Assembly (NCBI GenBank): GCA_963642055.1
Contig: CAVIFQ010000009.1
Span: 1,322-65,321, forward strand
Direction of reading: 5' to 3'
Length of the DNA: 64,000 nucleotides
Source of the DNA: Roseburia hominis
GTDB lineage: Bacteria; Bacillota_I; Bacilli_A; RFN20; CAG-826
Shown: positions 10,062 to 51,614 of the stretch, piece by piece
Layout of the letters: every line of letters begins with the position of its first letter
Position numbering within the stretch: position 1 is the stretch's first letter
The notes under the pieces: generated by a model
Database searches by the model: none
Told to the model about the DNA's origin: nothing
What the model saw: only the letters and a program-made list of their open reading frames with translations
Translations under genes and position numbers: made by a program

Positions 10062-10357
10062 GATACCGTCTTTCTTTTGACGTATGCATTAAACGCTGAT
10101 CACGTTTTTAATGCGTTATATCTTGAATGGTGGTCAATGAAGGGCCACGTCCATAACTCGCAGATGGTTTTATCATTGGTTCACTTTTAATAAATTTGGA
10201 CTGTAACTCCAAATTTATTAAAATTCCGACGCAAGCAGCGCAAAAAGAGTGTCATTCTTCGAACGCCGAAAGTGCGTTTTGGTAGAAAAGTACCCCCACA
10301 AAGTTACCAAAATAATATAATAAACATGCATTTTGGTAAAGATAAGCAGGGGATTCG

Positions 10358-11794
10358 ATGAATATGAGCAACATCAAGACGCTTATAGGCAGAAATGAAG
10401 AAATAGATGTCTTGAGGGATTGCTTGGCATCCAAACAGCCACAATTCCTGGCTATTTATGGAAGAAGGGGCGTTGGGAAAACACATCTAGTAAAGCATTT
10501 TTTCGATGGGCGATTCTCTTTTTATTCGACGGGGTTCCCTCATAGTAACAAGAGAGATAGTTTATGCGCTTTCTCCGAATCGCTGATTTCATATGGCTAT
10601 CATTTGGATAATGAGCTTAAGGATTGGTTCCAGGCTTTCTCTTGTTTGAAGGCTCTTTTGAATTCGCCTGATTGTTACCGAGACGAAGAGACGGGCAAGC
10701 GTATTGTTTTCCTTGATGAGCTTCCTTGGATGGATTCGAAAGGGAGCGACTTCAAGCCGGCGCTTGATTATTTTTGGAATACATACGGATCAACGGAAAA
10801 CGATCTGCTTCTTATTGTCTGTGGATCAGCTACCTCTTGGATCATCAATAATATCTTAAAAGACGTCGGTGGATTCTATAACCGCATCACCAATCTGATT
10901 CATTTGTTGCCTTTCAATTTGAAGGAATGCCTCGCTCTAGCGAAATTAAAGGATCTCGATTATGACGCACCGACAATTTGCAGAGCCTATATGGTTTTCG
11001 GCGGAATCCCGTATTACTGGAATCTTTTAATGCCCTCCAAAAGCCTTGATCAGGAAATCAATCGTCTTTGCTTCTCGGAGAGTGGGGCTCTTCGTTACGA
11101 GTTTCCGAATTTGTTCAGCTCTTTGTTCTCGAAGAGCGAGAAGCATCGATCCATCATCGAGGCCCTATCAAAGAAAAGCTCCGGACTCACGAGGAACGAT
11201 TTGATCGATATGGGTCTAGAAAGCGGTGGGAACAATCTCACGAAGTGCTTGGAGGAACTAGAGCAATGCGGATTCATCAGACACTTCAATAGGCCCAATA
11301 AAGCCAATAACTGCTTTTATCAAATCATCGATCCCTTCACGCGTTTTGCTTTGAATTTCATTCAAAAAGAGAAGACGAGCTCTTGGCTTACTTATATTGA
11401 TTCCCCTTCCTATTATGCGTTTCTTGGGAATGCTTTCGAGACCCTTTGCCTCAACCATATCAAGGAGATAAAAAGCGCCATCGGGATTTCAGATATCGAA
11501 ACAAATGAATATTCCTGGCGGAGCAAAAGCCACACTCCAGGTGCGCAGATAGACCTGCTTATCGATAGGAAAGACGGCATCATCAATCTCTGCGAGATGA
11601 AATATGCCTCTTCCGCTTTCCTCATCGATAAGAATTACGCCGCGAATCTCGAAAACAAGAAGGTGGCGTTTATCGAGGAGAGCAAAACGAAAAGCACCGT
11701 ACGCTTGGCTTTTATCAGCCCTAAAGGGGTTAAGAGTAACGAGTATTCTTCTTCGATCAGGAACGTTGTCACTCTCGACGATCTATTCAAATAG
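10358..11794 (+). CDS. AAA/Arch-ATPase family protein with C-terminal PD-(D/E)xK-like motif (DUF234-type)
   Basis: Walker A YGRRGVGKTHL, Walker B VFLDELPW, nuclease-like QIDLLIDRKDGIINLCEMKY. Confidence 0.8.
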   Translation: MNMSNIKTLIGRNEEIDVLRDCLASKQPQFLAIYGRRGVGKTHLVKHFFDGRFSFYSTGFPHSNKRDSLCAFSESLISYGYHLDNELKDWFQAFSCLKALLNSPDCYRDEETGKRIVFLDELPWMDSKGSDFKPALDYFWNTYGSTENDLLLIVCGSATSWIINNILKDVGGFYNRITNLIHLLPFNLKECLALAKLKDLDYDAPTICRAYMVFGGIPYYWNLLMPSKSLDQEINRLCFSESGALRYEFPNLFSSLFSKSEKHRSIIEALSKKSSGLTRNDLIDMGLESGGNNLTKCLEELEQCGFIRHFNRPNKANNCFYQIIDPFTRFALNFIQKEKTSSWLTYIDSPSYYAFLGNAFETLCLNHIKEIKSAIGISDIETNEYSWRSKSHTPGAQIDLLIDRKDGIINLCEMKYASSAFLIDKNYAANLENKKVAFIEESKTKSTVRLAFISPKGVKSNEYSSSIRNVVTLDDLFK

Positions 11795-11905
11795 GCTTTG
11801 GTTATTGCGTTTTGAGTAGGCAACTTGATGCATACAAGAATATCTTGGATTCATCGAATCTTTTGCCGAATAGTTGCTTGGTCAATGGCTTGAAAAGAAA
11901 AGGGT

Positions 11906-13252: not shown

Positions 13253-13258
13253 CCTCCT

Positions 13259-13300
13259 TTTACTGGGTCACCAAAATATAATACATGTTGACCCAGTAAA
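13259..13300. promoter_or_regulatory. perfect 12-bp inverted repeat TTTACTGGGTCA-N18-TGACCCAGTAAA abutting the RBS of 11906..13252
   Basis: Read directly. The spacer contains TATAAT/TATTAT-like AT-rich hexamers on the minus strand. Confidence 0.6.
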
Positions 13301-13417
13301 TCAATAAGCAAGCAAAAAAATTAAGAGAGTATTGGATATTTACAAGGTCATACAGAGTCAATGCATCTAAATATTTCCAGCTATTTTTATTGTGACACGC
13401 TTGAGCGTTTCGCCAAA

Positions 13418-13445
13418 ATTTTTGTTGTATAATGCGTTGTATAAT
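13418..13445 (+). repeat. 28-nt element ATTTTTGTTGTATAATGCGTTGTATAAT (copy 2 of 3)
   Basis: Identical to 7912-7939. Lies between two minus-strand genes. Confidence 0.85.
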
Positions 13446-13505
13446 GAATGCCTCTTAATTGCTTTTGTGGCCCTATAGGCAAGGAGACTCACCGTTTATT
13501 TAGCA

Positions 13506-16124
13506 TCAAAATCTGTCGAGGTCAGTTTTGATTTTCAGTAAGCAGGATTCGATCTGCTTCTTCATTTCCTGAACTTTGTTTTTCTCTTCACTCATGGCTT
13601 TATAGTCGATTTTGTATTCCTTGAGATACCAATTGTCGGAGTATTCGTTTCGCTCTAGAAGCCCCAACTCTTCTTTACGCTCTTCGAGCTTTCTCCATAT
13701 ATCGGTTGTGGCCTTGACGGTTTTTAAATCTATAAGGATTTGATCGGTCGCTAAACGGTAATCGAGGTAGCAGATGGAGCTGAAATATTCTTCATCCCAT
13801 TTGCTCTTTCCTTCAAAGGGGAACAAGGAATTGAGCTGCTCTGTCTGGAATTTGATCCAGTCATTGCTTTTAGGCATATTCGCCGGGTCATAGACGATCT
13901 TGCCTTCGGATGAGAGTGAAGATAAAGCCTCACGGATAATCTCGCCTTTCTTCTTCCAGAGGAAGTAGGCCTTCAAGGAATCTTTCTTTAGATAAATGAC
14001 GAGTTGACTCGCCTCAATCCCGAATTCCTTGAGCAAAATGGCGGCGCATTGAATATGATATTCGGGCCGATAGTTCGTATAGACTTCGATATCTTCGCCA
14101 ATCGAGGAGTACCAGTCTTCTTTTTCGGTTGAGTGACGGATGAAAGACTTCTTCGGTTTCCCTTTCCAGGGGTAGTAGTTTTCGCTCGCGAGCTTCCTCA
14201 TCTTCTCGGGATACATCTCTAATAATGATTTTGCAACGCTTACGAGGATATCGGCGTAATTATTCACCGTCGTTTCTTTGCCGAAAAGTTTATAAGATAC
14301 GGGTTTCCCGAAGCGGAAGATATCATCGCGGTCAAGCGAGCAGATTATTTCGACGGTGTCGAAGAATTTGATACCGCTTATATCGGGTTTCTCCAATCTG
14401 AATTTACTAGAGACAATCGAAGATAAACGCTCGCCACGTTTCTCGATTTCCTCTTTGCCGAAGCTCACTTGCTCAGGATCGAAATCCTTATTGAGCACGA
14501 CGAACTTGGAGTCGTCCGTCTTTAGGAGGATATCCCTCTTCTCGATGAAGGAGTTATTCGACATGACGCTGTTCTTCTTTTGGGAACTGAGCGAGAGATT
14601 GCCCAAGGTATTGAGGTATTTATTATGGATATCTTCGTAATCGCTCCCAAGCGTAGCGATCCACTCCTCACTCAAAGTCTGGGGCATTATATGCTCCACC
14701 GAGACGCTTTTGGCGAAGGTGAATTCGTTATAGGGTTCAGGGTATCTCCCATTTTCGATCTTATAGAGGAGATAAGTCGAGAATTTCACGTTTTTGTAGA
14801 TCTCAGCCGTTTTGAGGGCTTCTTTCGTCTCGCTTTCGCTCCTTAAGCGGTCATTGGTCTCTAGCTGAGACAAGAAAGCATATATTGCCTCATAGTATTT
14901 GCTCTTGTTGCCTTCGATTTTATAGACGCGGTTATATAGGCTCAGCATGAAGCCGCGGAGAGAGCGCGTGGGAACGCCGCATATCGTTCTCCTCACTAGA
15001 TATACGATGATGAGATTGATGACTTTATTCAGAGTATCTTCATCGATTATCCCTGCCTCTTTATCGAGGAATACCCTCATCAAAAACGGGTAAGCGGTGC
15101 TTTGCCCCATATCGCGGAGCTCTTGCATGAGCATGTTCGTGCTTGCGGAAAATGAAGGGGTATCTCTAAGGAAGGGCTGATAGATTTTCGCTACGTTATA
15201 TAGATCGATGAGGAGTTTTTCTTTGTTTACGGATTCCTCGTTTCTTGATTCTTCGTTGGCGAAGCGGACGTATTCGCGGTAGATATCCTCGTAATTGATG
15301 GCGTAGCCCTTCTTCATCATCAAATAGTCGAAGACGAAGCTCTCCATGCTCTCTTCGCCGATGATGGTATCCTGGATAGCCTTCCAGTATTTCTTATAGA
15401 GTTCCTCCTGATCAGGAGCGGACATAAGCAGATAATTCCTGATCAAATCGGCATTGGAGAGTTTGATGCCAAGCGAGTTTATGCTCTCGAAAATAGCCTG
15501 GGAATCTTCGTCTTTTTCTAGCTTGATGACCACGACGATGAGGCGTTTCAAACCCTTGAGGATAATGTTTCTCGCATAATCCCCATCGACGCAGTCTTTC
15601 TTCAGCCTCTCATAAATGGTTTTGAAATTGCCATAGAGGTTATTCTCTTCGTTTTTACTGATGCTTGGATTATTTTCGATTTCATTGAAGGATTCGGCTT
15701 TCATTATCGCTTCAAAGGTATCTATGTCATGTTCGCTTGGTTTCAATACGAGCCCCTTTTCGCGTTCCTTGGAGTTTATGTAGATATAATCCGGTATTTC
15801 CTCGTAGACGTATTTATACCCATCATCCTCAAGATGGTCTTTGCTTAGTAGATGGAGCGCTTTCAAAATGAGTATGATGGTCATCGTTCTCTGCTGACCA
15901 TCCACAAGATGCTTTTTTTCGACGCCTATTCCGCTCCATTGCTGATAGATCAAAGTACCGGTGAAGTGCTCTTTGTTCGTTTTTCCGGCTTTTTCGATAT
16001 CGTCGATGAGGCGGATAGACTGCTCGCTCGTCCACTTATATTTTCTTTGATAGATCGGTATGACGTATTGTTGATTGTTCGTCCCCAATAAGTCATTCAA
16101 CAAAGTGATTTTGCCCGCTTCCAT
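13506..16124 (-). CDS. GmrSD-like type IV restriction protein (DUF262 + DUF1524) with extra C-terminal domain
   Basis: DUF262 motifs YVIPIYQRKYKW and VDGQQRT. DUF1524 His-Me-finger-like SVEHIMPQ ... LGNLSLSSQKKNS. About 290 further residues of unknown function. Confidence 0.85.
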   Translation of the reverse strand: MEAGKITLLNDLLGTNNQQYVIPIYQRKYKWTSEQSIRLIDDIEKAGKTNKEHFTGTLIYQQWSGIGVEKKHLVDGQQRTMTIILILKALHLLSKDHLEDDGYKYVYEEIPDYIYINSKEREKGLVLKPSEHDIDTFEAIMKAESFNEIENNPSISKNEENNLYGNFKTIYERLKKDCVDGDYARNIILKGLKRLIVVVIKLEKDEDSQAIFESINSLGIKLSNADLIRNYLLMSAPDQEELYKKYWKAIQDTIIGEESMESFVFDYLMMKKGYAINYEDIYREYVRFANEESRNEESVNKEKLLIDLYNVAKIYQPFLRDTPSFSASTNMLMQELRDMGQSTAYPFLMRVFLDKEAGIIDEDTLNKVINLIIVYLVRRTICGVPTRSLRGFMLSLYNRVYKIEGNKSKYYEAIYAFLSQLETNDRLRSESETKEALKTAEIYKNVKFSTYLLYKIENGRYPEPYNEFTFAKSVSVEHIMPQTLSEEWIATLGSDYEDIHNKYLNTLGNLSLSSQKKNSVMSNNSFIEKRDILLKTDDSKFVVLNKDFDPEQVSFGKEEIEKRGERLSSIVSSKFRLEKPDISGIKFFDTVEIICSLDRDDIFRFGKPVSYKLFGKETTVNNYADILVSVAKSLLEMYPEKMRKLASENYYPWKGKPKKSFIRHSTEKEDWYSSIGEDIEVYTNYRPEYHIQCAAILLKEFGIEASQLVIYLKKDSLKAYFLWKKKGEIIREALSSLSSEGKIVYDPANMPKSNDWIKFQTEQLNSLFPFEGKSKWDEEYFSSICYLDYRLATDQILIDLKTVKATTDIWRKLEERKEELGLLERNEYSDNWYLKEYKIDYKAMSEEKNKVQEMKKQIESCLLKIKTDLDRF

Positions 16125-16406
16125 ATCGCACCCCTTATTTTCGTGGCGGAGAATACGCTTAAGCCTTCTTCGCTTTGCGTTTTTCTCGCCGATAATTTGT
16201 CTAGATAAGTATCCCCCAATTTCTCCTGGCCATAAAGAGTGAATGGATTGGTTAATCGGTTTGACGACTTTTCTGCTTTTTGCCGATTTTGATGGCGAGA
16301 ATCTTGAATAGCGATAATGAAAAAGTAGTGGGGCAATTGCGTGAAATCAAAGCGTTAGATCGACGGTTGACTGAGTGAGGGACGGCGCCTTACTGGTTAA
16401 ATTCCT

Positions 16407-16429
16407 GTTGTATAATAATGTTGTATAAT
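16407..16429 (+). repeat. GTTGTATAAT-aat-GTTGTATAAT (copy 3, diverged)
   Basis: cctGTTGTATAATaatGTTGTATAATgg, same strand as copies 1 and 2. Confidence 0.8.
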
Positions 16430-16612
16430 GGATTGCGCCTGAACGATATAGTGGCGGAAAAATCTAGGTTTTTTAGGTTTTGTAACCCCATATATTTTTG
16501 TCAGATGAGTTCGTTTTTTAGACGTTATTCGAGAGTAAGCGAACGCGAAAATGAATCACCTTATAAAGGCAAGAAATGCCAGCTGCTCCAGCTCTCTTAA
16601 CGAGCTGCCTAC

Positions 16613-16670
16613 AATTTATCACCAACCAATTTATCACCAACCAAAAATGAAAAAATGGTTGGTAATAAAT
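16613..16670 (+). repeat. left copy of about 58-bp direct repeat bracketing 16746..18155
   Basis: AATTTATCACCAACC AATTTATCACCAACC AAAAATGAAAAAA TGGTTGGTAATAAAT (two direct words plus one inverted word). Confidence 0.9.
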
Positions 16671-16745
16671 CTATGTTCGTGATGCCTTTGATGAATAGAA
16701 TGACAAAACGAGGCTAAATGTTCGTCCGCTGTTTTGAACGTAGGT

Positions 16746-18155
16746 TCAGCAGTTCACCTTCCAATATCCGGTTTTGTTTGAGCCGATCCTTTCGAGCATG
16801 TTCTCGTTTTTCAAGAACTTTATGTTTTTGTCGATCGCGGTTTCGCTCACGCCGATTAAAACAGAGAGGTCACGTTTGGTTATGCTCGGGTTATGCTTCA
16901 TCTCTTCTAAGAGTTTGGTTCTATTTTCGCTCAGCCCGGCTTTGCTGTTGCTTTCGCTTTTGGCTTTGTTTCCGTTTTTCTTACCGACGATTCTATTCAT
17001 ATTGAAAGGAATCGTGACAACGATTGAATTGTCTCTGAATTCGAAGGCTTTCTTTGAATAAGTTTCAACGATTCTAGGCACGCCTCTTCCGGATTTATCG
17101 CTGATTCTCAGTTGAGCGAAAATCTCCGAGAGCTTATCGTTCACCGGCACCGATTCCCCAAGATAAAAGCCTTCGATGGTCTGGGCTGGGGCGATGCTGC
17201 CGCGTGAGAGGATCTCGATTCGATTCGAGAAAACCGAAATCATTGGCTCATTTCCGTTCACCCACTTGTTGTGCAAGACCGCATTCACGATAGCTTCGTT
17301 ATAGGATTTGATGTCGAAGAGCGGAGATTCTTTCCTCTCTTCCTTACGGTTCGTCTCATCGGATTGGATGATGTTCAAGACATCGCCATAGTCCAATAGG
17401 TTCTTAAGTGAATAGAGAATGCAATCGAACCCGAACTCCTTTATCGCATATAAATCCGATCCCTTGCTCTCTCCTTCGAAAATCGAAAGGCGCAGCGGCA
17501 AATGGGAATTGTCCGACAATAGCTGCGCCAAGATGTTGTACTTCCCTTCGCTCGTGAGCAAGGAAAGATTCTTTTTGAAAGTGGCCTTCCTTAACTCTAT
17601 CCCTTTCGATCCGTAATACATGAAAAGCTTCTCGAAAGTCAGATCTTGATAGATGGACTCCGTGTTCACGATAGTGGGGTAGCCAGTGTCTAAAGCCTTA
17701 AACAGTCTTTTCTCGAGCTCCGGATTGTCTTTGATCGACGTCTTCGAGGAGCCAATGCGAACATATCTTTCGCAATTAAAGGAGGTCGGTATGTTGGAGG
17801 CTGCACCGATTATGAGGATCACGACCCTATTGCCTTTTATTTCTCCTTCGATGAATTCCAGTTTGATCTTTGGGTTCAAGTTCCTATTAAGGTAATTCTG
17901 GTAGGGCTCTTTTTTATAATCCTGGAACTGATCGAAGTTCGTGTTCGTGAACTCATGGGTTTCATCATCTATTCCCCAAACAAAATAGCCTTCGCTTTTC
18001 CCAACGAGGGCGCATGAATTCGAGATTGCGCTGACGTATTCCCCGAGCTGAACTGGCTCAAACCAGTTGCTCTTGAACTCAAACCATTCGCGCTCTTTGC
18101 TGTATTGTCTTAGTTCATTGACGATTTTCTCGACCCTTGCATTATCGTTTTTCAT
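16746..18155 (-). CDS. AlbA_2 (Schlafen-like) domain protein with ATPase-like region and C-terminal wHTH
   Basis: EWFEFKSNWF...ISNSCALVGKSEGYFVWGIDDETHE (AlbA_2). EAIVNAVLHNKW block. C-terminal wHTH ITKRDLSVLIGVSETAIDKNIKFLKNENMLERIG. Confidence 0.72.
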   Translation of the reverse strand: MKNDNARVEKIVNELRQYSKEREWFEFKSNWFEPVQLGEYVSAISNSCALVGKSEGYFVWGIDDETHEFTNTNFDQFQDYKKEPYQNYLNRNLNPKIKLEFIEGEIKGNRVVILIIGAASNIPTSFNCERYVRIGSSKTSIKDNPELEKRLFKALDTGYPTIVNTESIYQDLTFEKLFMYYGSKGIELRKATFKKNLSLLTSEGKYNILAQLLSDNSHLPLRLSIFEGESKGSDLYAIKEFGFDCILYSLKNLLDYGDVLNIIQSDETNRKEERKESPLFDIKSYNEAIVNAVLHNKWVNGNEPMISVFSNRIEILSRGSIAPAQTIEGFYLGESVPVNDKLSEIFAQLRISDKSGRGVPRIVETYSKKAFEFRDNSIVVTIPFNMNRIVGKKNGNKAKSESNSKAGLSENRTKLLEEMKHNPSITKRDLSVLIGVSETAIDKNIKFLKNENMLERIGSNKTGYWKVNC

Positions 18156-18167
18156 CTACTGCCCTCC

Positions 18168-18225
18168 TTTTATTACCAACCATTTTATCACCAACCAAAA
18201 ATGAAAAAAATGGTTGGTAATAAAT
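18168..18225 (+). repeat. right copy of about 58-bp direct repeat bracketing 16746..18155
   Basis: TTTTATTACCAACC ATTTTATCACCAACC AAAAATGAAAAAAA TGGTTGGTAATAAAT. It starts next to the gene's RBS. Confidence 0.9.
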
Positions 18226-18552
18226 TGTCGTTATTCCGTTATTTGTTTCTAGTGAATAGGCTTAAACGTGTCCCGATTATATCGTTATTTGTTTCCGCTG
18301 AATTCGTGCCTTTCATATCGAAAGACTAGGATAATGTCCGCTCATTTCATATCGGCGCGAAAGCGTTGATAAATGTCGACCGCCTTTTGACATCCGAGAG
18401 GCGACAACAAATAAGAGAATAATGACAAACTTCGGTTATTTTGGGGCCGTCAAGAAAGAGCCCCTATAAAAAGAAGGTGAATGATGATAAATTTAACTCG
18501 GTTCAAACCGAGTCGGATTAAACCGAGTAAAACAAGGAAGGATGGTTCAGCC

Positions 18553-19944
18553 ATGAGATTCATCGGAAGAGAAGAGGAAAGCACGAAGATAAAGAAAGCC
18601 GTTGAGGCGGATGAGCTAAGAACCATTTTGATGTACGGGAGACGGAGAGTCGGGAAAAGCGAGCTCATCAAGCATGTGAGCAAGGATTATGCGGATAATA
18701 CGATTTATTACGAATGCAAAGAGGTCTCGGAAAAGAGCAACGTAAGCGGCTTATGCGAGGTTCTATCCGATCGCCTCAATCTCCCAAAACTTGCTTTCGC
18801 AGATTTGGAGTCCACCCTCAAGTTCATCTTTGAACTATCCAAAACGAGGAAGCTCATTTTGGTGCTTGATGAATACCCATATCTAAAGAAAACAGTTTCA
18901 GGCATCGACAGCATCCTTCAATCATTGATCGATACCTATAAAGACGAGGCCAAACTCACTTTCATTTTGCTTGGCTCATATATCGATATCATGTCTTCGC
19001 TCTTAGAAGCGAGCAATCCGATGTATGGACGCGTGGATCTGACTATCGACTTAAAACCGATGGATTATTACGATTCGTCTCTCTTTTACCCTTCTTTCTC
19101 GAGCGAAGACAAAGTGAGGCTATATGCTGTTTTCGGCGGCATCCCTTATTACAACCGCCTGATTGATGAGACGAAAAGCGTCAAAGACAACATCAAAGAG
19201 CTCATCGCTTCTGATGGGGCCCGCTTAGAAAACGAGATTCCCCTCTGCTTAAGCGCGGAAATCAAGAAAATCGTGAACGCGAATGAGGTATTTGCCGCCC
19301 TTGCGAAAGGCTACTCAAAGTACGGCGATATCCTCTCGCAGTCCCATGTCTCGAGCGGACCGACGCTCGTCGATGTGCTCGATAAGCTCATAAAGATGGA
19401 ACTCATCGAGAAAGTGAATCCCATCAATGAGGAGAATAACAAAAAGAGGACGAGCTACTCTATCTCCGATAACCTCTCCTTCTTTTATTATAGGTATATA
19501 TTCAGCCACTCTTCAGAGATGAAGATAATGAGCGCTGAATCCTTTTACGATAAATACATCGAGCGTGATTTCGAGGAGCAATATGTGCCGCATCTTTTCG
19601 AAAAAGTCTGCAAAGAATACCTCATTAGGCAAAATAAAGCCGGGAAGATCGATCCCGTTCTCGAAAAGATCGGCAAATATTATTACGACTGCCCGAAAGA
19701 GCATAAAAATGGCGAGTTCGATGTGGTGAGCCTCGATAGCGGTGGCTATATCTTTTACGAAGCCAAATTCAGCAAGAAGCCAATCGATGATGCGACGATC
19801 GAAGAAGAGATAAAGCAAGTAGATATGACGGGATTAGACTGCTACAAGTATGTTTTTATCGGCAAGGAAATGAAGGCTAAAACAAAACGTGATGATGTAA
19901 AATTTATCAATCTAGATGAGTTTTACGGAGATTTTGGCGATTGA
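18553..19944 (+). CDS. AAA/Arch-ATPase family protein with C-terminal PD-(D/E)xK-like motif (DUF234-type)
   Basis: Start moved to MRFIGREEE (RBS AAGGAAGGA upstream). Walker A YGRRRVGKSEL, Walker B LVLDEYPY, nuclease-like GEFDVVSLDSGGYIFYEAKF. Confidence 0.8.
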   Translation: MRFIGREEESTKIKKAVEADELRTILMYGRRRVGKSELIKHVSKDYADNTIYYECKEVSEKSNVSGLCEVLSDRLNLPKLAFADLESTLKFIFELSKTRKLILVLDEYPYLKKTVSGIDSILQSLIDTYKDEAKLTFILLGSYIDIMSSLLEASNPMYGRVDLTIDLKPMDYYDSSLFYPSFSSEDKVRLYAVFGGIPYYNRLIDETKSVKDNIKELIASDGARLENEIPLCLSAEIKKIVNANEVFAALAKGYSKYGDILSQSHVSSGPTLVDVLDKLIKMELIEKVNPINEENNKKRTSYSISDNLSFFYYRYIFSHSSEMKIMSAESFYDKYIERDFEEQYVPHLFEKVCKEYLIRQNKAGKIDPVLEKIGKYYYDCPKEHKNGEFDVVSLDSGGYIFYEAKFSKKPIDDATIEEEIKQVDMTGLDCYKYVFIGKEMKAKTKRDDVKFINLDEFYGDFGD

Positions 19945-28218: not shown

Positions 28219-29802
28219 ATGTCACTATATCTAAATCAAGGCAACCGTTCATTCTTCGAAAACCGCAACGCGAAGATATACGTCGACAAGTCTTTGCTCA
28301 TCAAGAAGACCAACGAGCTCCTCGGCACGCCGGACAAATTCATGTGCGTGACGCGCCCCCGACGCTTTGGGAAGAGCACGGCTTATTCGATGATCAACGC
28401 CTACTATTCGAAAGGTTGCTCCTCCAGAGGACTATTCAAAGGCCTCAAGATATACGACGACCCCTCTTTTGAGGAACATCTCAACAAGCACAACGTGATA
28501 TCGATCGATATGGCCTCGGTCTACAACATGCTCGATGAAGGGGAAGACCTCGTCAAAAAACTCAAAAAATACATCTACCTCGATCTTAAGGAGGCTTTTC
28601 CGGACGCCCATCTCGAGTATGATGCCGATGAGTCATCTTCCCTTGCTTTCGCCCTCAAAGATCTCGGCAACAAGGGGGAGCGGCTCATCCTTCTCATCGA
28701 CGAATGGGATGTGCTCTTCAGAAAAGAGCCCACCAACAAAGCGCTCTGCGACTCCTATATGAAGCTCTTAAGCAGTCTTTTCAAATCTGGCGATGTCTCT
28801 CAGTGCCTCGACCTCGTCTACATGACCGGCATTTTGCCCATCAGGAGATACAGTTCCCAGTCCGACCTCAACAACTTCATCGAATACAACATGATAGATC
28901 CCGACGGTATCCCCGACTCCTTCGGCTTCACCGAGGGGGAGGTCAAAAATCTCTGCGAGAAGTGGAGCATGGACTTCGACGAGGTGAAAAGCTGGTACGA
29001 CGGGTACCGCCTCAAAGGAATGGAGATATACAACCCAAGGTCAGTGGTCAGGGCCATCACGAGCCGCGAATGCAGCGATTATTGGATCTCGACTGCCAGC
29101 ATGGATCCCGTCAAGGAATACATGAACTATGACGGAGGTGCGCTCAAAGGCGAGATCATAAAGATGCTTGCCGGCGAGAAGGTGCCAGTCAACGTTACGC
29201 TCTTCCAGAACGACCTAACGCAAGTGAACAGCCGCGACGCCGCCCTCACAGTGCTCATCCACCTCGGATACCTAGGCTACGACAAAGAGAGCAAGGAATG
29301 CTTCATCCCCAACAAAGAGATAACTGACGAGATAATGAACGCCATCCAGGATATCCCCTGGCCCGACGTCTATAACCCGATATCGGAATCGGAGAAACTC
29401 CTCGAAGAGACCCTCAAAGGCAACACCGGCTACATCGACGAGACCTTCGACAAGAACCACGCCGACCTCGTTACCCCCTTCAACAAGAACGACGAGGGCG
29501 TGCTCTCGATAATCGCCAGGATCTCGTACAAAAAAGCGGAAAGATACTACAAGATCACCTCCGAGCCGAACTGCCCCACGGGGAGGGCCGATCTGCTCTT
29601 CACCCCGAGAGTGCCAGGCTATATCCCGATCATCATCGAGTTGAAGGTCGATCACTCTCCGGAGAAAGCGATTCAGCAGATAAAGGACAGGAACTACGTC
29701 TCGACGCTCAATGGATATCACGGCAAAGTCATGCTTTTGGGCATCGCTTACGAATCGAAGAGTCTGAAGCATCGTTCGAAGATTGAGTACGTCACTTTGT
29801 AG
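28219..29802 (+). CDS. AAA-ATPase-like protein with C-terminal PD-(D/E)xK nuclease-like domain (PDDEXK_9-type)
   Basis: TRPRRFGKST P-loop variant, Walker B LLIDEWD, C-terminal GRADLLFTP...IIIELKVD. Paralog of 62632..>64000. Confidence 0.8.
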   Translation: MSLYLNQGNRSFFENRNAKIYVDKSLLIKKTNELLGTPDKFMCVTRPRRFGKSTAYSMINAYYSKGCSSRGLFKGLKIYDDPSFEEHLNKHNVISIDMASVYNMLDEGEDLVKKLKKYIYLDLKEAFPDAHLEYDADESSSLAFALKDLGNKGERLILLIDEWDVLFRKEPTNKALCDSYMKLLSSLFKSGDVSQCLDLVYMTGILPIRRYSSQSDLNNFIEYNMIDPDGIPDSFGFTEGEVKNLCEKWSMDFDEVKSWYDGYRLKGMEIYNPRSVVRAITSRECSDYWISTASMDPVKEYMNYDGGALKGEIIKMLAGEKVPVNVTLFQNDLTQVNSRDAALTVLIHLGYLGYDKESKECFIPNKEITDEIMNAIQDIPWPDVYNPISESEKLLEETLKGNTGYIDETFDKNHADLVTPFNKNDEGVLSIIARISYKKAERYYKITSEPNCPTGRADLLFTPRVPGYIPIIIELKVDHSPEKAIQQIKDRNYVSTLNGYHGKVMLLGIAYESKSLKHRSKIEYVTL

Positions 29803-45262: not shown

Positions 45263-46021
45263 TTAGGCCCTATTTTCTTTCTTGATCTTGAGACCGATTT
45301 CTTCAAAAGCGTGCTCTTTTTGCGGAGATTTTTCTTCTCTTTCTGTAACGCTCAGGTCTACAAGTTCTTTTTCTGCCTCGCTCATTTCTTCGTTCGCTAA
45401 TTCGATCACTTTGTGGCCACGGTGAATGTAGAGCCTCGTATTCATGAGCATGTCGCAGTAGATTCTCTCAAGCTTCTTTTGGCTGTATTTGGTGTTGAAG
45501 GAGAAGCCAACGCTTTCGAGAAGATCATATATGCACTCATCGAAAGAGCTGCTCCTGATTTTCATTTGGCAGTAGAGAGTGGTCATAAAAGAACGGACGG
45601 CTCTCTCGTTCTTATCGTCTTTGATATTAGAGTACTTATAGATGAAATGCATGAATTCGGTGTTATAGCTATCTTCTCCTTCATCGCAGTAGAAGTCCTC
45701 TTCATAAGCGAGGAAGTCCTCTTTGCTGGGAGGAAAATAGAAAGAGGCTCTGCTTGCAAGGGCGTTGACTCTCACCACGTCCTCGTCTTTATCGAGGAAG
45801 TCGGAGATAAGCATGAAGCGGTTATCGCCGATTCTTTCGACACGGAAATACTTTTTACGGTGCTTCTTGTGGAATTTCTCTAAAGCAAGAAGGGTATCGT
45901 TTTTATCGACGCCGTCATAATAATGATCGATTATCATATCGATGTTTTCATTTGTGGCGATTCCGTATAGATGGGCGATGGATTTGAAAATCCGTTCGTA
46001 TTCGGCCTGGCTTATTTTCAT
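45263..46021 (-). CDS. hypothetical protein
   Basis: 252-aa ORF with coding-like composition. No motif recognised. Confidence 0.55.
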   Translation of the reverse strand: MKISQAEYERIFKSIAHLYGIATNENIDMIIDHYYDGVDKNDTLLALEKFHKKHRKKYFRVERIGDNRFMLISDFLDKDEDVVRVNALASRASFYFPPSKEDFLAYEEDFYCDEGEDSYNTEFMHFIYKYSNIKDDKNERAVRSFMTTLYCQMKIRSSSFDECIYDLLESVGFSFNTKYSQKKLERIYCDMLMNTRLYIHRGHKVIELANEEMSEAEKELVDLSVTEREEKSPQKEHAFEEIGLKIKKENRA

Positions 46022-46121
46022 ATGCGGTTATATTTCTCTCTTACCCAAATTGTCGCAGTTTCCGCCCTTAAAGTTAAGATGCATCTGTTTGGCCACCCCT
46101 TTCGAGTGACTGGTCAAAATG

Positions 46122-46234
46122 AGTTTTTTGATACTTTGGGCTCAAAAGCACGATGAAAGTATCAAAAAAGTCGGTTGGTCAATGGAGTTTTTTGAGTGTT
46201 TAGGCTCAATTTCTGGCTGAAACACTCAATTTTC
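46122..46234 (+). repeat. left copy of about 113-bp direct repeat (two hairpin modules) abutting the stop codon of 46235..47665
   Basis: Module 1: TTTTTTGATACTTT-N18-AAAGTATCAAAAAA. Module 2: TTGAGTGTTT-N18-AAACACTCAA. Confidence 0.9.
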
Positions 46235-47665
46235 TCATTTGAAAAGCTCGTCGATGGTGATGACGGATGAAAAATCGTCTTTGTACGGGCTATCCGCTAG
46301 ACCATAGGTGGTGATGAGAGTAGGGACGATCCGATACTCCTTTTCAACTCTTTTCCTCAAGACATCGATCTTGTTCATGAGATTGAGGTGATATTCCTTG
46401 TCGACTTTGAATTCCGCGCTGAGGAATTTCATCTCGCAGAGGGAGATGATGTTGTCTTTGCGTTCGATAAGCAAATCGATCTGCGCGCCTTTTTCCTCTT
46501 TTTCTTTCATGAACCACGAGAATCGCATGGTGTTGATGCCTCTTATGCCGAGGGCGCGTTTGATTTCATCGAGGTGGGAAAAGCAGAGATTCTCGAAGGA
46601 GACGCCAACCCAATTGTTCTTATTGGAATCAGAGAAGAAATCATGGTCGAGCGAAGTTTGCTCATATACGTATTTGAGATAGAAAAGGCAAAATGGATCG
46701 ATCACCTTGTAGCGTTTTTTGTTCTTGCTCTCCTTGTATGGTACGTATTCGATGATGAAATCGCTGTGCTTTAAGGCTTTTAAAGTGTCCCCTACGATCG
46801 CCCCATCGGCGATATTGAGCTCCTTTAAAAGTTCTTTCCTCGTGTAGCCTTCTCTCTTCTTTGCGAGCGTCAAAATGAATTTTTTGGTGAGCTTCTCGTT
46901 ATCGAAGCTCGATGAGAGCAGATTATCAAATTCATTAGCCATCTTCGCGTCTTTTTTGAAGAAGAGATTGTCGATGTTCTCTTCTAGAGACATATGGTCG
47001 TCATAATAAGAAAGATAGTAGGGGATGCCGCCCAAAACCATATTCAGCATCGCGATTTTATAATTGCTTGTGTTGACGCCGAGGCTTCTTAAAAACTGTG
47101 CCGATTCCTTCAAGGAGAAAGGGGAGAGGCGAATGCTATAGGTAAGGCGGTCGTATAAGCCGCCGTGAGCGTTTATGAGATGATTATTGATCCAAGAGAT
47201 GGCAGAGCCACAGACAATGAACATAAGGTCTTTTTGCTTGCTTCCCCATTGGTTCCAGAACCAGGAAAAAGAACTCAAGAAAGAGGAACGCGGGGTATCT
47301 AGCCAAGGGAGCTCGTCAATGAAGACAACGTGCCTATTCCCATCGCGCTTGCTCTCCAATAAAGAGATTAGGAGCGTGAAAGCCTCAATCCAGGAACGAG
47401 GCTTCTTCCCTTTCTTCAATCCTTGGGAGAGGAGAGAACCGTAAAAAGATTCTAGCTGCGCCCTCATTTTCCCTCTCTCGTCATTTTGAAGGTCATCGGG
47501 GGCTGAACCGATGTGAGTGAAAATCATCTCATCGGCGAAAAGATTGTTTATCAAATACGTTTTGCCGACCCTTCTTCGCCCGTATACGGCCACAAGCTCT
47601 GGCTTGTCACTCGCGAAAAGGCGTTTCAGTTCTTTTATTTCTTTCTCTCTTCCGATGATTTCCAT
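46235..47665 (-). CDS. AAA/Arch-ATPase family protein with C-terminal PD-(D/E)xK-like motif (DUF234-type; paralog of 10358..11794)
   Basis: Walker A YGRRRVGKTYL, Walker B VFIDELPW, nuclease-like QIDLLIERKDNIISLCEMKF. Confidence 0.82.
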   Translation of the reverse strand: MEIIGREKEIKELKRLFASDKPELVAVYGRRRVGKTYLINNLFADEMIFTHIGSAPDDLQNDERGKMRAQLESFYGSLLSQGLKKGKKPRSWIEAFTLLISLLESKRDGNRHVVFIDELPWLDTPRSSFLSSFSWFWNQWGSKQKDLMFIVCGSAISWINNHLINAHGGLYDRLTYSIRLSPFSLKESAQFLRSLGVNTSNYKIAMLNMVLGGIPYYLSYYDDHMSLEENIDNLFFKKDAKMANEFDNLLSSSFDNEKLTKKFILTLAKKREGYTRKELLKELNIADGAIVGDTLKALKHSDFIIEYVPYKESKNKKRYKVIDPFCLFYLKYVYEQTSLDHDFFSDSNKNNWVGVSFENLCFSHLDEIKRALGIRGINTMRFSWFMKEKEEKGAQIDLLIERKDNIISLCEMKFLSAEFKVDKEYHLNLMNKIDVLRKRVEKEYRIVPTLITTYGLADSPYKDDFSSVITIDELFK

Positions 47666-47710
47666 CTTCGTTGCCTCCTTCTTTTATGATGATTATACAC
47701 TTTTAAAAAT

Positions 47711-47824
47711 AGTTTTTTGATACTTTAGGCTCAAAATCGCGTCGAAAGTATCAAAAAAGTCCGTTGGTTGATGGAGTTTTTTGAGTATTTCGACTTAAAT
47801 TTGAGCCGAAACACTCAATTTTTT
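47711..47824 (+). repeat. right copy of about 113-bp direct repeat, about 45 nt upstream of the start of 46235..47665
   Basis: Same two-module structure. By eye about 85 percent identical to 46122-46234. Confidence 0.9.
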
Positions 47825-47931
47825 AATTTTGGATTTGATGGTTTTTCTTATCGTTTCTCTCTTCTGCGAGAAAGTAGACACCGGTAAAGCCTTCTTTGAG
47901 AAAGGACCCGCCAAATGTATACTGCTCTTAG

Positions 47932-49706: not shown

Positions 49707-49882
49707 GTGTGTTGAATCGTGTGTTGCGTCATGTGTTGTTAAGCCAATTAAAAGACTTCGCAAAGAGCAAAAGGTTGGAAAATTCCATTTTTAGGTCATT
49801 TTCAAGGTTGGAAAATTCAAGAAAATGGGCGTTTTCAAGGTTGGAAAATTCAAGAAAAGTGGCCTTTTCGAGGTTGGAAAAG
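49707..49882 (+). repeat. two word arrays: 3 x GTGTGTTG (period 12-13) then 4 x AGGTTGGAAAA(TTCAAGAAAA) (period about 33)
   Basis: Read directly upstream of 49938. Confidence 0.88.
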
Positions 49883-49937
49883 TTGATTGATGATATGAAA
49901 ACAGGCATAATGAGTGAAGAAAAAGGAAGTGAGGCAG

Positions 49938-51263
49938 ATGCTAAAGAGAAAGTTTGAGGCAAAACTAGAAGAATGGCTGAAGAGTGACAAAGTATTGCTC
50001 GTCGATGGGGCTAGACAAGTCGGAAAAAGCTTTTTGATCGACTATTTCTGCAAAAAGCATTTCGCGAATTACGTCCAGATTAACCTCGCTTTGGAAAGCG
50101 GGGCAATCGAGGCTTTCCGCTCCGTGAAAGACGTCGATGGCTTTTTATTGGCAGTCAGTGCCTTTTCATCTTCTCCTCTCGTTCCTAGAGAAACCGTCAT
50201 TTTCATCGATGAGATACAACTTGCGCAGGGTGTTGATTTTCTCACGCTTTCCAAAGGCCTCGCGCTCGATGGGCGTTATCGGTTCATCTTCTCGGGCTCG
50301 TTACTTGGAGTGAATGATTTCACCCCAAGGCTAAATCCGACAGGGTATTTGTACAAAGAGACGATGTATCCTCTCGATTTCGAGGAATTTCTCTACGCGA
50401 ATGGCGTGAATGAAGACGTTATCGCGACTTTGGAATCGTGTTTCAAGGAAAGAAAAGAGGTTCCTTCTTTCATTCACGAAAAGATGATTGATCTCTTCTA
50501 TCTATATCTATTGGTTGGAGGGATGCCAGATGCCGTGAATAGCTTTCTAGCGAGCAATGACCTCCAGACGATGAGAATAGTTTTCAAATCCATCGAATCC
50601 TTCTACCACGACGATATTGCGAAGTACGCCAAAAACGAGGATAAGCCCTACATATTGAGCGCTTACGATTTACTTCCGAGTGAACTGAACAGCAAATCCA
50701 AGCGTTTTATCCTCTCTAAGCGCGGAAATGGGTATTCCCTCAAGCGGAGCGAGAATGACTTCTTGTGGATGAAAGACGCTGGGATCGCCCTACCCGTCTA
50801 TAACGTCGATGAGCCGAAAATACCGCTTTTACTAAGCAAAAACAGCACGCTTTTCAAACTTTTCGCGAATGATGTGGGTTTACTTTCCTACCGCCTTTTC
50901 AATACGGGCGTCGAAAAGAAAATCCTCGCCCACGCAAAAGACATCAATTTTGGGAGTATCTTCGAAAACGCGGTCGCGATGGAATTAAACGCCCACGGCT
51001 TCAAAGATCATTTGTTCTATTTCTCGAGCAAGAAGCAAGGTGAGGTCGATTTCTTGCTTGAATACGAAGGCAAACTGTTGCCGATTGAAGTGAAATCAGG
51101 CAAAGACTACAAACGTCATGTGGCTCTTAACAATCTGCTCTCCAATAAGGAATACGATATTGAAGAAGCCTATATCTTCGGCAACTGCAATCTGGAAAGA
51201 AAAGGCAAGAAGACGTACTTCCCGATTTATATGATCGACTACGTCCGCCAAGAAGAGATTTAG
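49938..51263 (+). CDS. AAA_14-type ATPase with C-terminal PD-(D/E)xK-like motif (DUF4143-type)
   Basis: Start at MLKRKFE. Walker A DGARQVGKSFL, Walker B IFIDEIQ, C-terminal GEVDFLLEYEGKLLPIEVKSGK. Confidence 0.8.
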   Translation: MLKRKFEAKLEEWLKSDKVLLVDGARQVGKSFLIDYFCKKHFANYVQINLALESGAIEAFRSVKDVDGFLLAVSAFSSSPLVPRETVIFIDEIQLAQGVDFLTLSKGLALDGRYRFIFSGSLLGVNDFTPRLNPTGYLYKETMYPLDFEEFLYANGVNEDVIATLESCFKERKEVPSFIHEKMIDLFYLYLLVGGMPDAVNSFLASNDLQTMRIVFKSIESFYHDDIAKYAKNEDKPYILSAYDLLPSELNSKSKRFILSKRGNGYSLKRSENDFLWMKDAGIALPVYNVDEPKIPLLLSKNSTLFKLFANDVGLLSYRLFNTGVEKKILAHAKDINFGSIFENAVAMELNAHGFKDHLFYFSSKKQGEVDFLLEYEGKLLPIEVKSGKDYKRHVALNNLLSNKEYDIEEAYIFGNCNLERKGKKTYFPIYMIDYVRQEEI

Positions 51264-51614
51264 TCTCAATAGCAAAGGCACCCCATGAAGCCCGGGGGAA
51301 TCCCCCAGCTACTGGCGGGGTTCCCCCGGCTGAAGGAAGATTGCCTCTGAGTTAGCGATACTGCCTACATTGGATAAATTTGGAATGTTGTTCATTTTTT
51401 ATCAAAAATACAATTCTGTCTGGTGCCGGCATCCATTTTTTCAATGGCGGCGAAAATTGGCGTCTGCTCCCATAAATGAGGGTATTGAGGCCTTAAAAAT
51501 GCCAAAAACGGCATTTTTGGTATCGAAATCAATCCTAGAGAGAAAAGTGAAACAGGCGCAATTTTGATTTTTGTCGGTCTGACGATAGAGTATTTTTCGT
51601 TCAGGATCATTGCC

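What the first reader, a model, noticed from the sequence alone, without database searches (positions are those of the whole stretch)
46122..47824. ATPase-nuclease gene enclosed by 113-bp direct repeats built from hairpin modules with compensatory stem changes
Each flank carries two modules of about 51 nt: GAGTTTTTTGA-NNNN-TTT, an 18-nt loop starting (A/G)GGCTCAA, then AAA-NNNN-TCAA. Module 1 uses GATAC/GTATC and module 2 uses GAGTG/CACTC, so the stems differ but stay complementary. That is covariation, which argues for a selected hairpin in RNA or cruciform DNA. The left copy touches the stop codon and the right copy lies about 45 nt upstream of the start, so an mRNA would carry the same pair of hairpins at both ends. 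Recombination between the copies would delete exactly this gene.
Basis: seen in the sequence. Interest (0 to 1): 0.7.

Follow-up and report, generated by a model that had tools for sequence, protein, structure and literature searches.

The report
Palindromic site arrays flanking defence ATPase-nuclease gene
A candidate phage-defence gene (ATPase fused to a nuclease) is bracketed by two copies of a four-half-site palindromic DNA array that turns out to be a gene-specific hallmark of this whole protein family, most likely a promoter-linked control site rather than an RNA hairpin.

Summary
A 125-nt direct repeat (46116-46240 and 47705-47829, 83% identical) flanks ORF 46235..47665(-). Each copy holds two 52-nt palindromic modules, and nothing similar occurs elsewhere in the 64 kb.

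The protein is a full-length match to PADLOC candidate defence gene PDC-S27. It has an ORC/Cdc6/STAND-like ATPase with a winged helix, plus a D..ExK nuclease motif.

The modules are not REP/MITE-like. In about 0.7 Mb of homologous loci they occur only next to these genes.
- 81% of 70 family genes carry a strong inverted repeat upstream, against 17.5% of control genes.
- The arms differ between loci and between paralogs.
- 17 of 66 loci repeat the array directly after the stop codon.

Putative promoter elements lie inside or just downstream of the arrays. Stem mismatches show no RNA-type strand bias. Two relatives carry hybrid modules whose stem centres do not pair.

I therefore favour a DNA-level array of half-sites (operator or iteron-like), probably read by the encoded protein. 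The duplicate 3' of the gene is kept similar by gene conversion. A structure-based hairpin role and cassette-type recombination are not excluded. The cis-element appears undescribed.

The parts
46235..47665 (-). ATPase-nuclease gene, 476 aa. It belongs to candidate defence family PDC-S27: an ORC/Cdc6/STAND-like P-loop ATPase, a winged helix, and a C-terminal D..ExK (PD-(D/E)XK-type) motif.
   Evidence: ORF. Pfam ATPase_2 E=4.6e-16. PADLOC PDC-S27 E=5.4e-173 over residues 2-475. Invariant D396, E410, K412. AF2 model pLDDT 87.7; Foldseek hits 2qen, Orc1/Cdc6-DNA, MalT, NLRs, Avs.
47705..47829 (-). Upstream copy of the array (direct-repeat copy 2). Four half-sites arranged as two palindromic modules.
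   Evidence: The homology block with L007 starts exactly at its outer edge (47825).
47774..47825 (-). Upstream distal module (M2). Arms are TTGAGTGTTT / AAATACTCAA, with one G.T position on the gene strand. Its 18-nt spacer is inverted relative to the downstream M2.
   Evidence: it scores 56.8 bits on the minus strand and 51.7 on the plus strand.
47710..47761 (-). Upstream proximal module (M1). Arms are TTTTTTGATACTTT / AAAGTATCAAAAAA (47713-47726 and 47745-47758), spacer 18 nt. The gene-proximal arm lies where a -35 element would be.
   Evidence: (I16).
47666..47709 (-). Promoter-proximal segment that is not part of the repeat. It holds TATAAT (47692-47697 on the minus strand) and GGAGG (47674-47678 on the minus strand), both conserved in L007.
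   Evidence: Sequence and comparison with L006, L090 and L007. The strict sigma-70 scan found no full -35/-10 pair here, so the promoter is inferred, not shown.
46116..46240 (-). Downstream copy of the array (direct-repeat copy 1). It starts at the stop codon.
   Evidence: In strain L006 its M2, spacer and first arm of M1 are identical to the upstream copy, which indicates a gene-conversion tract.
46185..46236 (-). Downstream distal module (M2). Arms are TTGAGTGTTT / AAACACTCAA (46192-46201 and 46220-46229).
46121..46172 (-). Downstream proximal module (M1). Arms lie at 46121-46137 and 46156-46172.
   Evidence: (I9).
46016..46115 (-). 100-nt tail conserved with L007. It is the 5' region of the neighbouring 252-aa orphan gene family (element CTTAACTT...AACTGCGACAAT). 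It is not part of the repeat.
45263..46021 (-). 252-aa orphan ORF immediately downstream of the array. It has no family match, and any link to the ATPase is unproven.

Best explanation
The '113-bp repeats' are two copies of a cis-acting DNA element that belongs to the ATPase-nuclease gene.

The element is an array of four about 17-nt half-sites in alternating orientation (> < > <), which reads as two palindromic modules. The promoter-proximal end of the array abuts or overlaps the gene's promoter.

I propose that it works on double-stranded DNA as an operator or iteron-like binding array for a dyad-symmetric or oligomeric protein. The most likely reader is the encoded ORC/Cdc6-like ATPase-winged-helix protein itself, keeping a potentially toxic defence nuclease under autogenous control.

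The second copy, directly after the stop codon, arose by duplication or recombination of the array. It is kept similar by gene conversion. It may act as a second operator (looping or insulation) or may simply be a recombination by-product. Crossover between the copies would delete the gene.

Shown: anatomy, gene-specificity, family-wide recurrence, position relative to promoter motifs, concerted evolution.

Inferred: protein binding, the identity of the binder, and the regulatory outcome.
For: 1. Gene-specific. The modules occur only at this gene in the window. In about 665 kb of related loci they occur only beside the homologous genes.

2. Family-wide. The best upstream inverted repeat has median score 13 in 70 loci, against 6-7 in controls. 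81% of loci reach score 10 or more, against 17.5% of controls (Mann-Whitney p=1e-19). Paralog 10358..11794 in the same window has its own different arms with 54-nt spacing.

3. Position. TATAAT and the RBS lie just downstream of the array in WIN and L007. In Bacteroidota-type loci arms 3 and 4 bracket the -33 TTTG and -7 TAnnTTTG motifs. In Firmicutes-type loci TTGACx-17-TATAAT overlaps an arm and the spacer.

4. Half-site behaviour.
- Arrays hold 2-5 arms with a 52-64-nt period.
- In L064 and several others the best dyad is the inter-module pair.
- L008 and L092 combine GATAC and CACTC arms in one module.
- L061 vs L067 changed the same base in arms 1, 2 and 3.

5. No RNA signature. There are 38 G.T and 26 A.C mismatches, and no Rfam match.

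6. The only conserved linked gene is the ATPase itself, since the neighbours differ in every context. Its fold matches DNA-bound Orc1/Cdc6 with a winged helix.

7. Concerted evolution of the two copies.
Against: - No binding or expression data exist.
- The arms are long (median 15.5 nt, up to 27) and often perfectly complementary. That is more than a typical half-site needs.
- The arms are hypervariable, yet the winged-helix region is well conserved. In the seven closest relatives it shows no pattern that tracks arm type.
- The downstream copy lacks the -10/RBS segment, and in several loci it faces a convergent gene. Its operator role is therefore speculative.
- The sigma-70 scan found no canonical promoter for this gene.
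Confidence: 0.45

Rival explanations
1. Structure-based element. The modules act as hairpins, either in single-stranded or cruciform DNA or in the 3' UTR RNA of the gene. The shape, not the sequence, is recognised, for example by the nuclease-ATPase, or the hairpins stabilise or terminate the transcript.
For: - Complementarity is preserved while arm sequence is almost free across the family.
- The protein's winged helix is conserved irrespective of arm sequence.
- Spacer orientation flips: M2 in the window and the A/T tracts in either orientation in other loci. This is typical of sequences that form hairpins or recombine arm-to-arm.
- The downstream copy would be transcribed, and it folds well (z -5.9 and -6.7 on the gene strand).
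- The window's own M1 and M2 differ by paired changes.
Against: - Upstream copies lie upstream of, or around, the inferred promoter.
- The stems are A/T-rich and weak, about -10 kcal/mol as DNA. Hybrid modules in L008 and L092 reach only -4.7 to -7.5 kcal/mol, with z as poor as -1.6.
- Spacers of 15-25 nt disfavour cruciform extrusion (established knowledge).
- There is no G.U strand bias.
- There is no terminator-like GC stem with a T-run.
Confidence: 0.22
2. Recombination or cassette element. The array is an att-like site. A circular [array + promoter + gene] unit integrates into a solo array (Campbell type) and can excise, giving a gene bracketed by direct repeats whose limits equal the array.
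For: - 17 of 66 loci have direct, never inverted, repeats of 40-120 nt at 80-97% identity. The 3' copy starts 8 nt or less after the stop codon in 10 of the 17. The 5' copy always excludes the -10/RBS.
- The same architecture is seen in L103 with unrelated arms.
- The WIN/L007 homology block starts exactly at the array edge within unrelated flanks.
- The syntenic backbone in L119 lacks the gene next to the 252-aa orthologue.
- Many assemblies break inside the array.
- Gene conversion between the copies is documented.
Against: - No solo array was found in about 0.7 Mb.
- No precise empty site and no circular junction were seen.
- No recombinase is linked to the gene.
- The WIN/L007 block carries 100 nt of a neighbouring gene's 5' region, which argues against precise site-specific excision.
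- Most family members (49 of 66) have only the upstream array.
Confidence: 0.15
3. No dedicated function for the 3' copy. The upstream array is a regulatory site, and the downstream copy is just a remnant of a tandem duplication or unequal crossover that has not yet decayed.
For: - Only about a quarter of loci have the 3' copy.
- It lacks promoter-proximal parts.
- Close relatives differ in having it: L103 has it, L093 does not.
Against: - It recurs in many distant lineages with different arms.
- Its start at the stop codon is consistent, and its identity is high and maintained by conversion.
Confidence: 0.13

Closest known systems
Autoregulatory palindromic operators of defence and toxin genes (for example C-protein C-boxes of restriction-modification systems, or BrxR/CapW-type operators)
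   Same: Dyad-symmetric sites in tandem (distal plus proximal) placed on or next to the promoter of a potentially toxic gene. The sites are system-specific in sequence.
   Different: - No separate regulator gene is present, so the putative reader is the ATPase-nuclease itself.
- The arms are much longer (14-27 nt).
- The spacers are long, 15-25 nt, often with an A/T tract.
- The array is often duplicated 3' of the gene.
- Binding is untested.
Archaeal Orc1/Cdc6 genes with adjacent ORB inverted repeats (origin recognition boxes)
   Same: The protein fold (AAA+ plus winged helix) matches DNA-bound Orc1/Cdc6. Inverted repeats flanking an A/T-rich spacer lie immediately upstream of the gene that encodes the protein.
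   Different: - The hosts are bacterial.
- A C-terminal nuclease domain is present.
- Many paralogs occur per genome.
- There is no evidence of replication initiation.
- The arm sequences are unrelated to the ORB consensus, although this was not formally tested.
Integron gene cassettes bounded by attC hairpin sites
   Same: A single gene is bracketed by imperfect-palindrome sites whose structure is conserved more than their sequence. Recombination between the sites would remove the gene.
   Different: - No GTTRRRY/RYYYAAC cores lie at the boundaries.
- No intI was found among 25 scanned ORFs of the window.
- The sites carry or abut the gene's own promoter.
- The sites are specific to one protein family.
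REP/BIME elements and REP-flanked RAYT genes
   Same: Short imperfect palindromes occur in pairs with alternating orientation. In RAYTs, the gene is flanked by the palindromes its product acts on.
   Different: The modules are not dispersed: there are 0 extra copies in 64 kb and in 665 kb of related loci. There is no HUH/Y1 transposase. The arms differ for every paralog.
Hairpin-associated small inversions (well known in chloroplast non-coding DNA) and quasi-palindrome template-switch correction
   Same: A spacer flipped between otherwise similar palindromes (window M2 up vs down), and paired changes in both arms.
   Different: These are mutational processes, not functional elements. They explain the variation pattern, not why the array is conserved.

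Membership tests
PDC-S27 (PADLOC candidate defence gene) - the protein | Full-length match to the PDC-S27 profile | tested here: met
   E=5.4e-173, residues 2-475 of 476 against profile positions 3-473 of 474.
PDC-S27 (PADLOC candidate defence gene) - the protein | ATPase fused to a PD-(D/E)XK-type nuclease | tested here: met
   Pfam ATPase_2. Invariant D396...E410-x-K412 with a beta-rich C-terminal domain. Described as such in PMC12988326.
PDC-S27 (PADLOC candidate defence gene) - the protein | Protects against phage | not testable with these tools
REP/BIME or MITE | Many dispersed copies, independent of a particular gene | tested here: not met
   Only the 4 modules in 64 kb (covariance model, filters off). 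In 665 kb of related loci hits lie only beside the ATPase genes. The genome-collection scan with the strict pattern gave 4 unrelated chance hits.
REP/BIME or MITE | Terminal inverted repeats with target-site duplication / associated RAYT or transposase | tested here: not met
   No TSD at the repeat edges. No transposase domain among the ORFs scanned.
Integron attC cassette | R''/R' core sites (RYYYAAC...GTTRRRY) at the cassette boundaries | tested here: not met
   The boundaries read AAATTGAGTG... and ...CAAAAAACT. No such cores lie at the ends.
Integron attC cassette | Linked IntI integrase and attI | tested here: inconclusive
   No integrase domain in 25 window ORFs scanned. Not all ORFs of the window were scanned.
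Intrinsic (rho-independent) terminator | G+C-rich stem, short loop, 3' T-run | tested here: not met
   The scan finds none at the modules. The stems are A/T-rich, with the T-run 5' and the A-run 3' of the core.
Any described RNA family (Rfam 15) | Covariance-model match | tested here: not met
   No hit at gathering threshold. Only two sub-threshold snoRNA chance hits inside the ORF at E<=1.
Selected RNA hairpin | Pairing kept through compensatory changes, with G.U tolerated on the transcribed strand | tested here: inconclusive
   83% of cells paired, and covariation is above the shuffles. However, 4 of 14 modules are unpaired at the variable triplet. G.T 38 vs A.C 26.
Promoter-linked operator / iteron array | Repeated dyad half-sites overlapping or abutting core promoter elements | tested here: met
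   Promoter elements were identified by motif only.
Promoter-linked operator / iteron array | Sequence-specific binding by a regulator that changes transcription | not testable with these tools
   Needs EMSA or footprinting and reporter assays.
Orc1/Cdc6-ORB origin module | AAA+ initiator fold with a winged helix | tested here: met
   Foldseek E about 1e-8 to Orc1/Cdc6 and ORC subunits. STAND NTPases score equally well.
Orc1/Cdc6-ORB origin module | Initiates replication at the adjacent repeats | not testable with these tools
   No data. It is unlikely a priori, given the bacterial host and the many paralogs.

The most novel reading that the evidence does not exclude
PDC-S27 genes are self-contained cis/trans modules. 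The ORC-like ATPase-nuclease recognises its own private palindromic array, with a different 'address' for each paralog. It uses the arrays on both sides of its gene to loop, silence, excise or copy the unit. This would be a new class of self-recognising defence or selfish cassette, with an initiator-like protein and iteron-like sites.
Probability: 0.15. Interest if true: 0.8.

Novelty: new variant of a known kind. Interest (0 to 1): 0.55.

Why it matters
PDC-S27 is among the most abundant candidate defence genes in archaea and in gut and rumen bacteria. It has thousands of copies and no tested mechanism (PMC12988326, PMC13356809).

A conserved, paralog-specific palindromic array at its promoter, often duplicated behind the gene, gives a concrete handle for experiments:
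- It predicts the DNA the protein binds.
- It offers a test for autoregulation or looping.
- It could explain why these genes break assemblies and vary between strains.
- It could improve annotation of such genes, through gene-plus-array signatures.

It also cautions that paired arm changes in DNA palindromes are not by themselves evidence of an RNA structure.

Tried and rejected
- **Strict module pattern in 185,579 species genomes.** It gave only 4 unrelated chance hits and did not recover the source genome.
- **Viral contigs.** The M1 pattern gave 0 hits. The M2 pattern gave 13 generic hairpins with no T-run flanks and no ATPase gene.
- **Rfam.** Nothing.
- **NCBIfam.** Nothing for either protein.
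- **Coevolution of arm type with the winged helix or other domains.** In the seven closest relatives there was no discriminating signal. Across 58 loci the arms simply track protein phylogeny.
- **Empty-site search through the neighbouring MFS and 252-aa genes.** The strains found all carry the gene, or the contigs break in it. The 55% orthologue locus L119 lacks the gene, but its contig ends after 457 nt.
- **Upstream junction difference between WIN and L006.** It looked like an alternative insertion. By eye against the sequences it looks like diverged homologous sequence, but it was never aligned.
- **Internal 17/18 match to an arm inside the gene (46869-46886).** It is confined to this lineage and is probably a coding coincidence.
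- **Literature searches.** Searches for PDC-S27, DUF4143 with inverted repeat, and PF01637/DUF234 found no description of these flanking elements.
- **Rejected by anatomy.** Terminator, CRISPR, integron attC and REP/MITE readings.
Full report
**Observation**

- A direct repeat of 125 nt (46116-46240 and 47705-47829, 83% identity) brackets ORF 46235..47665 on the minus strand.
- Each copy contains two 52-nt modules with the core TTGAnnnTTT-N18-AAAnnnTCAA. The pattern matches four times in the window, against none in 100 shuffles.
- A covariance model built from this clade's modules, run with filters off, finds only these four sites in 64 kb.
- Each repeat folds far better than shuffles (z -4.7 to -6.7 as RNA; each module about -10 kcal/mol as DNA).
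- The left copy overlaps the stop codon. The right copy's nearest module starts 44 nt from the start codon.

Two details differ from the description.
- The module at 47781-47818 carries the GGCTCAA spacer motif on the opposite strand, so its spacer is inverted relative to its counterpart at 46192-46229.
- Its arms contain one non-Watson-Crick position.

**The gene**

The 476-aa product matches Pfam ATPase_2. It matches the PADLOC profile PDC-S27 over its whole length (E=5.4e-173). PDC-S27 is a single-gene phage-defence candidate, described as an ATPase fused to a PD-(D/E)XK domain and not yet validated (PMC12988326).

An alignment of 20 homologues has invariant D396, E410 and K412. An AlphaFold model (pLDDT 87.7) resembles the Pyrococcus Walker ATPase 2qen, DNA-bound Orc1/Cdc6 and ORC subunits, and STAND NTPases. 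That is an AAA+/STAND core followed by a winged helix, then a beta-rich C-terminal domain.

The family is very large: 7,977 hits among the 8,000 candidates scored.

The window holds further genes of this general type:
- a 36% paralog at 10358..11794;
- an ATPase_2+DUF234 gene at 18481..19944;
- an AAA-ATPase_like+PDDEXK_9 gene at 28219..29802;
- a PDC-S01 gene at 49914..51263.

It also holds Schlafen-type and GmrSD genes.

**Are the modules generic repeats?**

No. I collected 80 metagenomic loci encoding 38-51% relatives and closer relatives through exact-protein look-ups.

In every locus the arms of the upstream palindrome recur only within about 300 nt upstream or about 130 nt downstream of the ATPase gene. 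They never recur elsewhere in the +-5 kb flanks. The covariance model gives the same answer over 665 kb.

The refutation criterion 'generic REP/MITE-like elements scattered independently of such genes' is therefore not met.

**A family-wide feature**

- The best inverted repeat in the 160 nt upstream of the gene has median score 13 in 70 loci. The median is 6 in random windows and 7 in 114 upstream regions of other genes from the same contigs.
- 81% of ATPase genes reach score 10 or more, against 17.5% of controls (Mann-Whitney p=1e-19).
- Arm sequences differ almost completely between loci but remain complementary. The median arm is 15.5 nt and the median spacer 15 nt.
- Arms track protein phylogeny. 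They are largely shared at about 85% protein identity or above, though with a few base changes already at 89% (L061/L067, L076/L083). They are largely different by about 75% identity and below.
- Paralogs within one genome have different arms. The window's paralog at 10358 has TTACCAAAAT/ATTTTGGTAA around a TATAAT, with a third arm 54 nt away.
- Arrays of 2-5 arms with a 52-64-nt period are common.

**The flanking duplication also recurs**

In 17 of 66 loci with both flanks available, the upstream and downstream regions share a repeat above the 99th percentile of mismatched controls.
- The repeat is always direct, 40-120 nt long and 80-97% identical.
- The downstream copy starts within 8 nt of the stop codon in 10 of the 17.
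- The upstream copy ends before the -10/RBS segment.

L103, a 62% relative with unrelated arms (TTTGGCAGAAACACACAATT), has a 118-nt repeat that is 114/118 identical. Its close relative L093 has only the upstream array. In several such loci the next gene is convergent, so the 3' copy is not simply another gene's promoter.

**Recombination between the copies**

- In strain L006 (99% identical protein), the downstream M2, the inter-module spacer and the first arm of M1 are identical to the upstream copy, unlike in the window.
- Within-genome copies are 87-94% identical, whereas positional orthologues between the window lineage and L007 are 82-83% identical.

This is concerted evolution by gene conversion.

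**Where is the promoter?**

In the window and in L007 (87% protein identity, unrelated flanks), TATAAT and GGAGG are conserved between the array and the ATG. The homology between the two repeat copies stops just before them.

In Bacteroidota-type relatives the -33 TTTG lies in arm 3 and the -7 TAnnTTTG sits at the junction with arm 4, with the ATG 8-30 nt further on. In Firmicutes-type relatives TTGACx-17-TATAAT overlaps an arm and the spacer.

These are motif identifications, not mapped starts. The strict sigma-70 scan found no canonical pair for the window gene. Still, they consistently place the upstream array on or upstream of the promoter, not in the 5' UTR. The idea of identical hairpins at both mRNA ends is therefore unlikely. 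Only the 3' copy would be transcribed with the gene.

**Hairpin or half-sites?**

Within the window clade the central triplet shows paired changes: GATAC/GTATC, GAGTG/CACTC and GACC/GGTC.

Evidence against a simple hairpin reading:
- Four of 14 modules (both in L008, both in L092) combine a GATAC-type left arm with a CACTC right arm, and their centres are unpaired. Their predicted DNA hairpins are weak (-4.7 to -7.5 kcal/mol, z down to -1.6).
- Across the family, non-Watson-Crick stem positions are 38 G.T and 26 A.C, with no strand bias.
- In L064 and many Bacteroidota-type loci the best dyad is formed by arms 2 and 3, across the module boundary.
- Between L061 and L067 (89% identity) the same G-to-C change is present in arms 1, 2 and 3.

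These features fit an array of equivalent half-sites better than a particular stem-loop.

Evidence for a structural component:
- The arms are longer and more perfectly complementary than usual half-sites.
- The winged helix is conserved regardless of arm type.
- Spacers occur in both orientations.

Templated correction of quasi-palindromes and arm-to-arm recombination can produce paired changes and spacer flips without selection. This last point rests on established knowledge, not on a test made here.

**Mobility**

The window/L007 homology block runs from the outer edge of the upstream array (47825) to 46016. It thus includes 100 nt beyond the downstream array. That tail is the 5' region of the 252-aa orphan gene family:
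- it is present upstream of that gene's relatives in L119 and L120;
- it survives in L007 without the gene.

In L119 the syntenic backbone (acyl-ACP thioesterase, AMP-binding enzyme, amine oxidase) has the 254-aa orthologue. There is no ATPase or module in the 457 nt up to the contig end.

The ATPase-plus-arrays unit is therefore an indel relative to the backbone and has changed context. I found no precise empty site, no solo array and no circle junction. The carried-along tail argues against precise site-specific excision. Assemblies frequently break inside the arrays, as expected for repeated or polymorphic sequence.

**Conclusion**

The best-supported reading is a gene-specific, promoter-linked array of palindromic half-sites acting on duplex DNA. 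It is probably bound by the encoded ORC/Cdc6-like protein for autogenous control. A recombination-generated 3' duplicate is homogenised by gene conversion (confidence about 0.45).

The alternatives remain open:
- a structure-based hairpin role (0.22);
- cassette-type recombination (0.15);
- a functionless 3' remnant (0.13).

I found no description of these elements in the searchable literature or in Rfam. The protein family is known. The cis-element and its duplication around the gene appear to be new, as a variant of operator or iteron-type control.

Noticed in passing
window 49771-49881: A 33-nt tandem repeat (3.4 copies, 83% matches). Each unit contains TTTTCaAGGTTGGAAAA. It lies immediately upstream of a PDC-S01 (AAA_14+DUF4143) ATPase gene at 49914..51263(+). 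L007's DUF4143 gene also has direct CTTCCTATTTA repeats upstream. A second ATPase-nuclease family therefore seems to carry its own upstream repeat array.
   Followed up: partly
window 10273-10339 (upstream of ORF 10358..11794): A 36%-identical paralog of the ATPase has its own half-sites: TGCGTTTTGGTA (10273), TTACCAAAAT (10304) and TGCATTTTGGTA (10327). The same-orientation spacing is 54 nt, and a TATAAT lies in the 16-nt spacer. The architecture is the same but the arm sequence is different.
   Followed up: partly
window 18169-18354 (upstream of ORF 18481..19944, ATPase_2+DUF234): A perfect 18-nt inverted repeat (TTTATTACCAACCATTTT / AAAATGGTTGGTAATAAA) lies here, together with several short direct repeats (27 nt at 46-nt spacing; TTTCATATCG twice).
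   Followed up: no
window 8184-19944: A defence-island-like cluster: a Schlafen group-3 helicase, a PDC-S27-like paralog, two SLFN_AlbA_2/HATPase_c_4 genes, GmrSD and ATPase_2+DUF234. A further AAA-ATPase_like+PDDEXK_9 gene lies at 28219..29802.
   Followed up: partly
window 46016-46115; L007 11587-11679; L119 about 395-455; L120 about 2185-2225: A conserved element, CTTAACTT...AACTG(C/A)GACAAT, lies upstream of the 252-aa orphan gene family. In L007 it persists although the gene is gone. It may be a promoter or leader of unknown type. The 249-aa relative in L120 and L121 lies next to another ATPase_2+DUF234 gene.
   Followed up: partly
window 46869-46886 (inside the ATPase ORF): A 17/18 match to the outer part of arm 4 plus its flank (GTCAAAATGAaTTTTTTG). 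None of 5000 codon-shuffled genes had such a match. It encodes LTKKFIL in the winged-helix region and is only partly kept in L007, so it is probably a coding coincidence.
   Followed up: partly
L095-L098, L100, L102, L104, L105 (contig starts): Independent metagenome assemblies of identical ATPase genes end inside the upstream array, several at the same base at the start of a spacer. This suggests a repeat-induced or polymorphism-induced assembly break at these elements.
   Followed up: no
L031 1148-1442: Five tandem copies of a 54-nt palindromic module (arm TCGGGGACAAATAA) lie upstream of one Bacteroidota-type family member. This is the largest array seen.
   Followed up: no
window 51292-51329 and 10185-10223: A G+C-rich inverted repeat (CCGGGGGAATCCC...GGGGTTCCCCCGG) follows the PDC-S01 gene. 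A perfect 16-nt A/T-rich palindrome follows the Schlafen helicase gene. Both are probably terminators.
   Followed up: no
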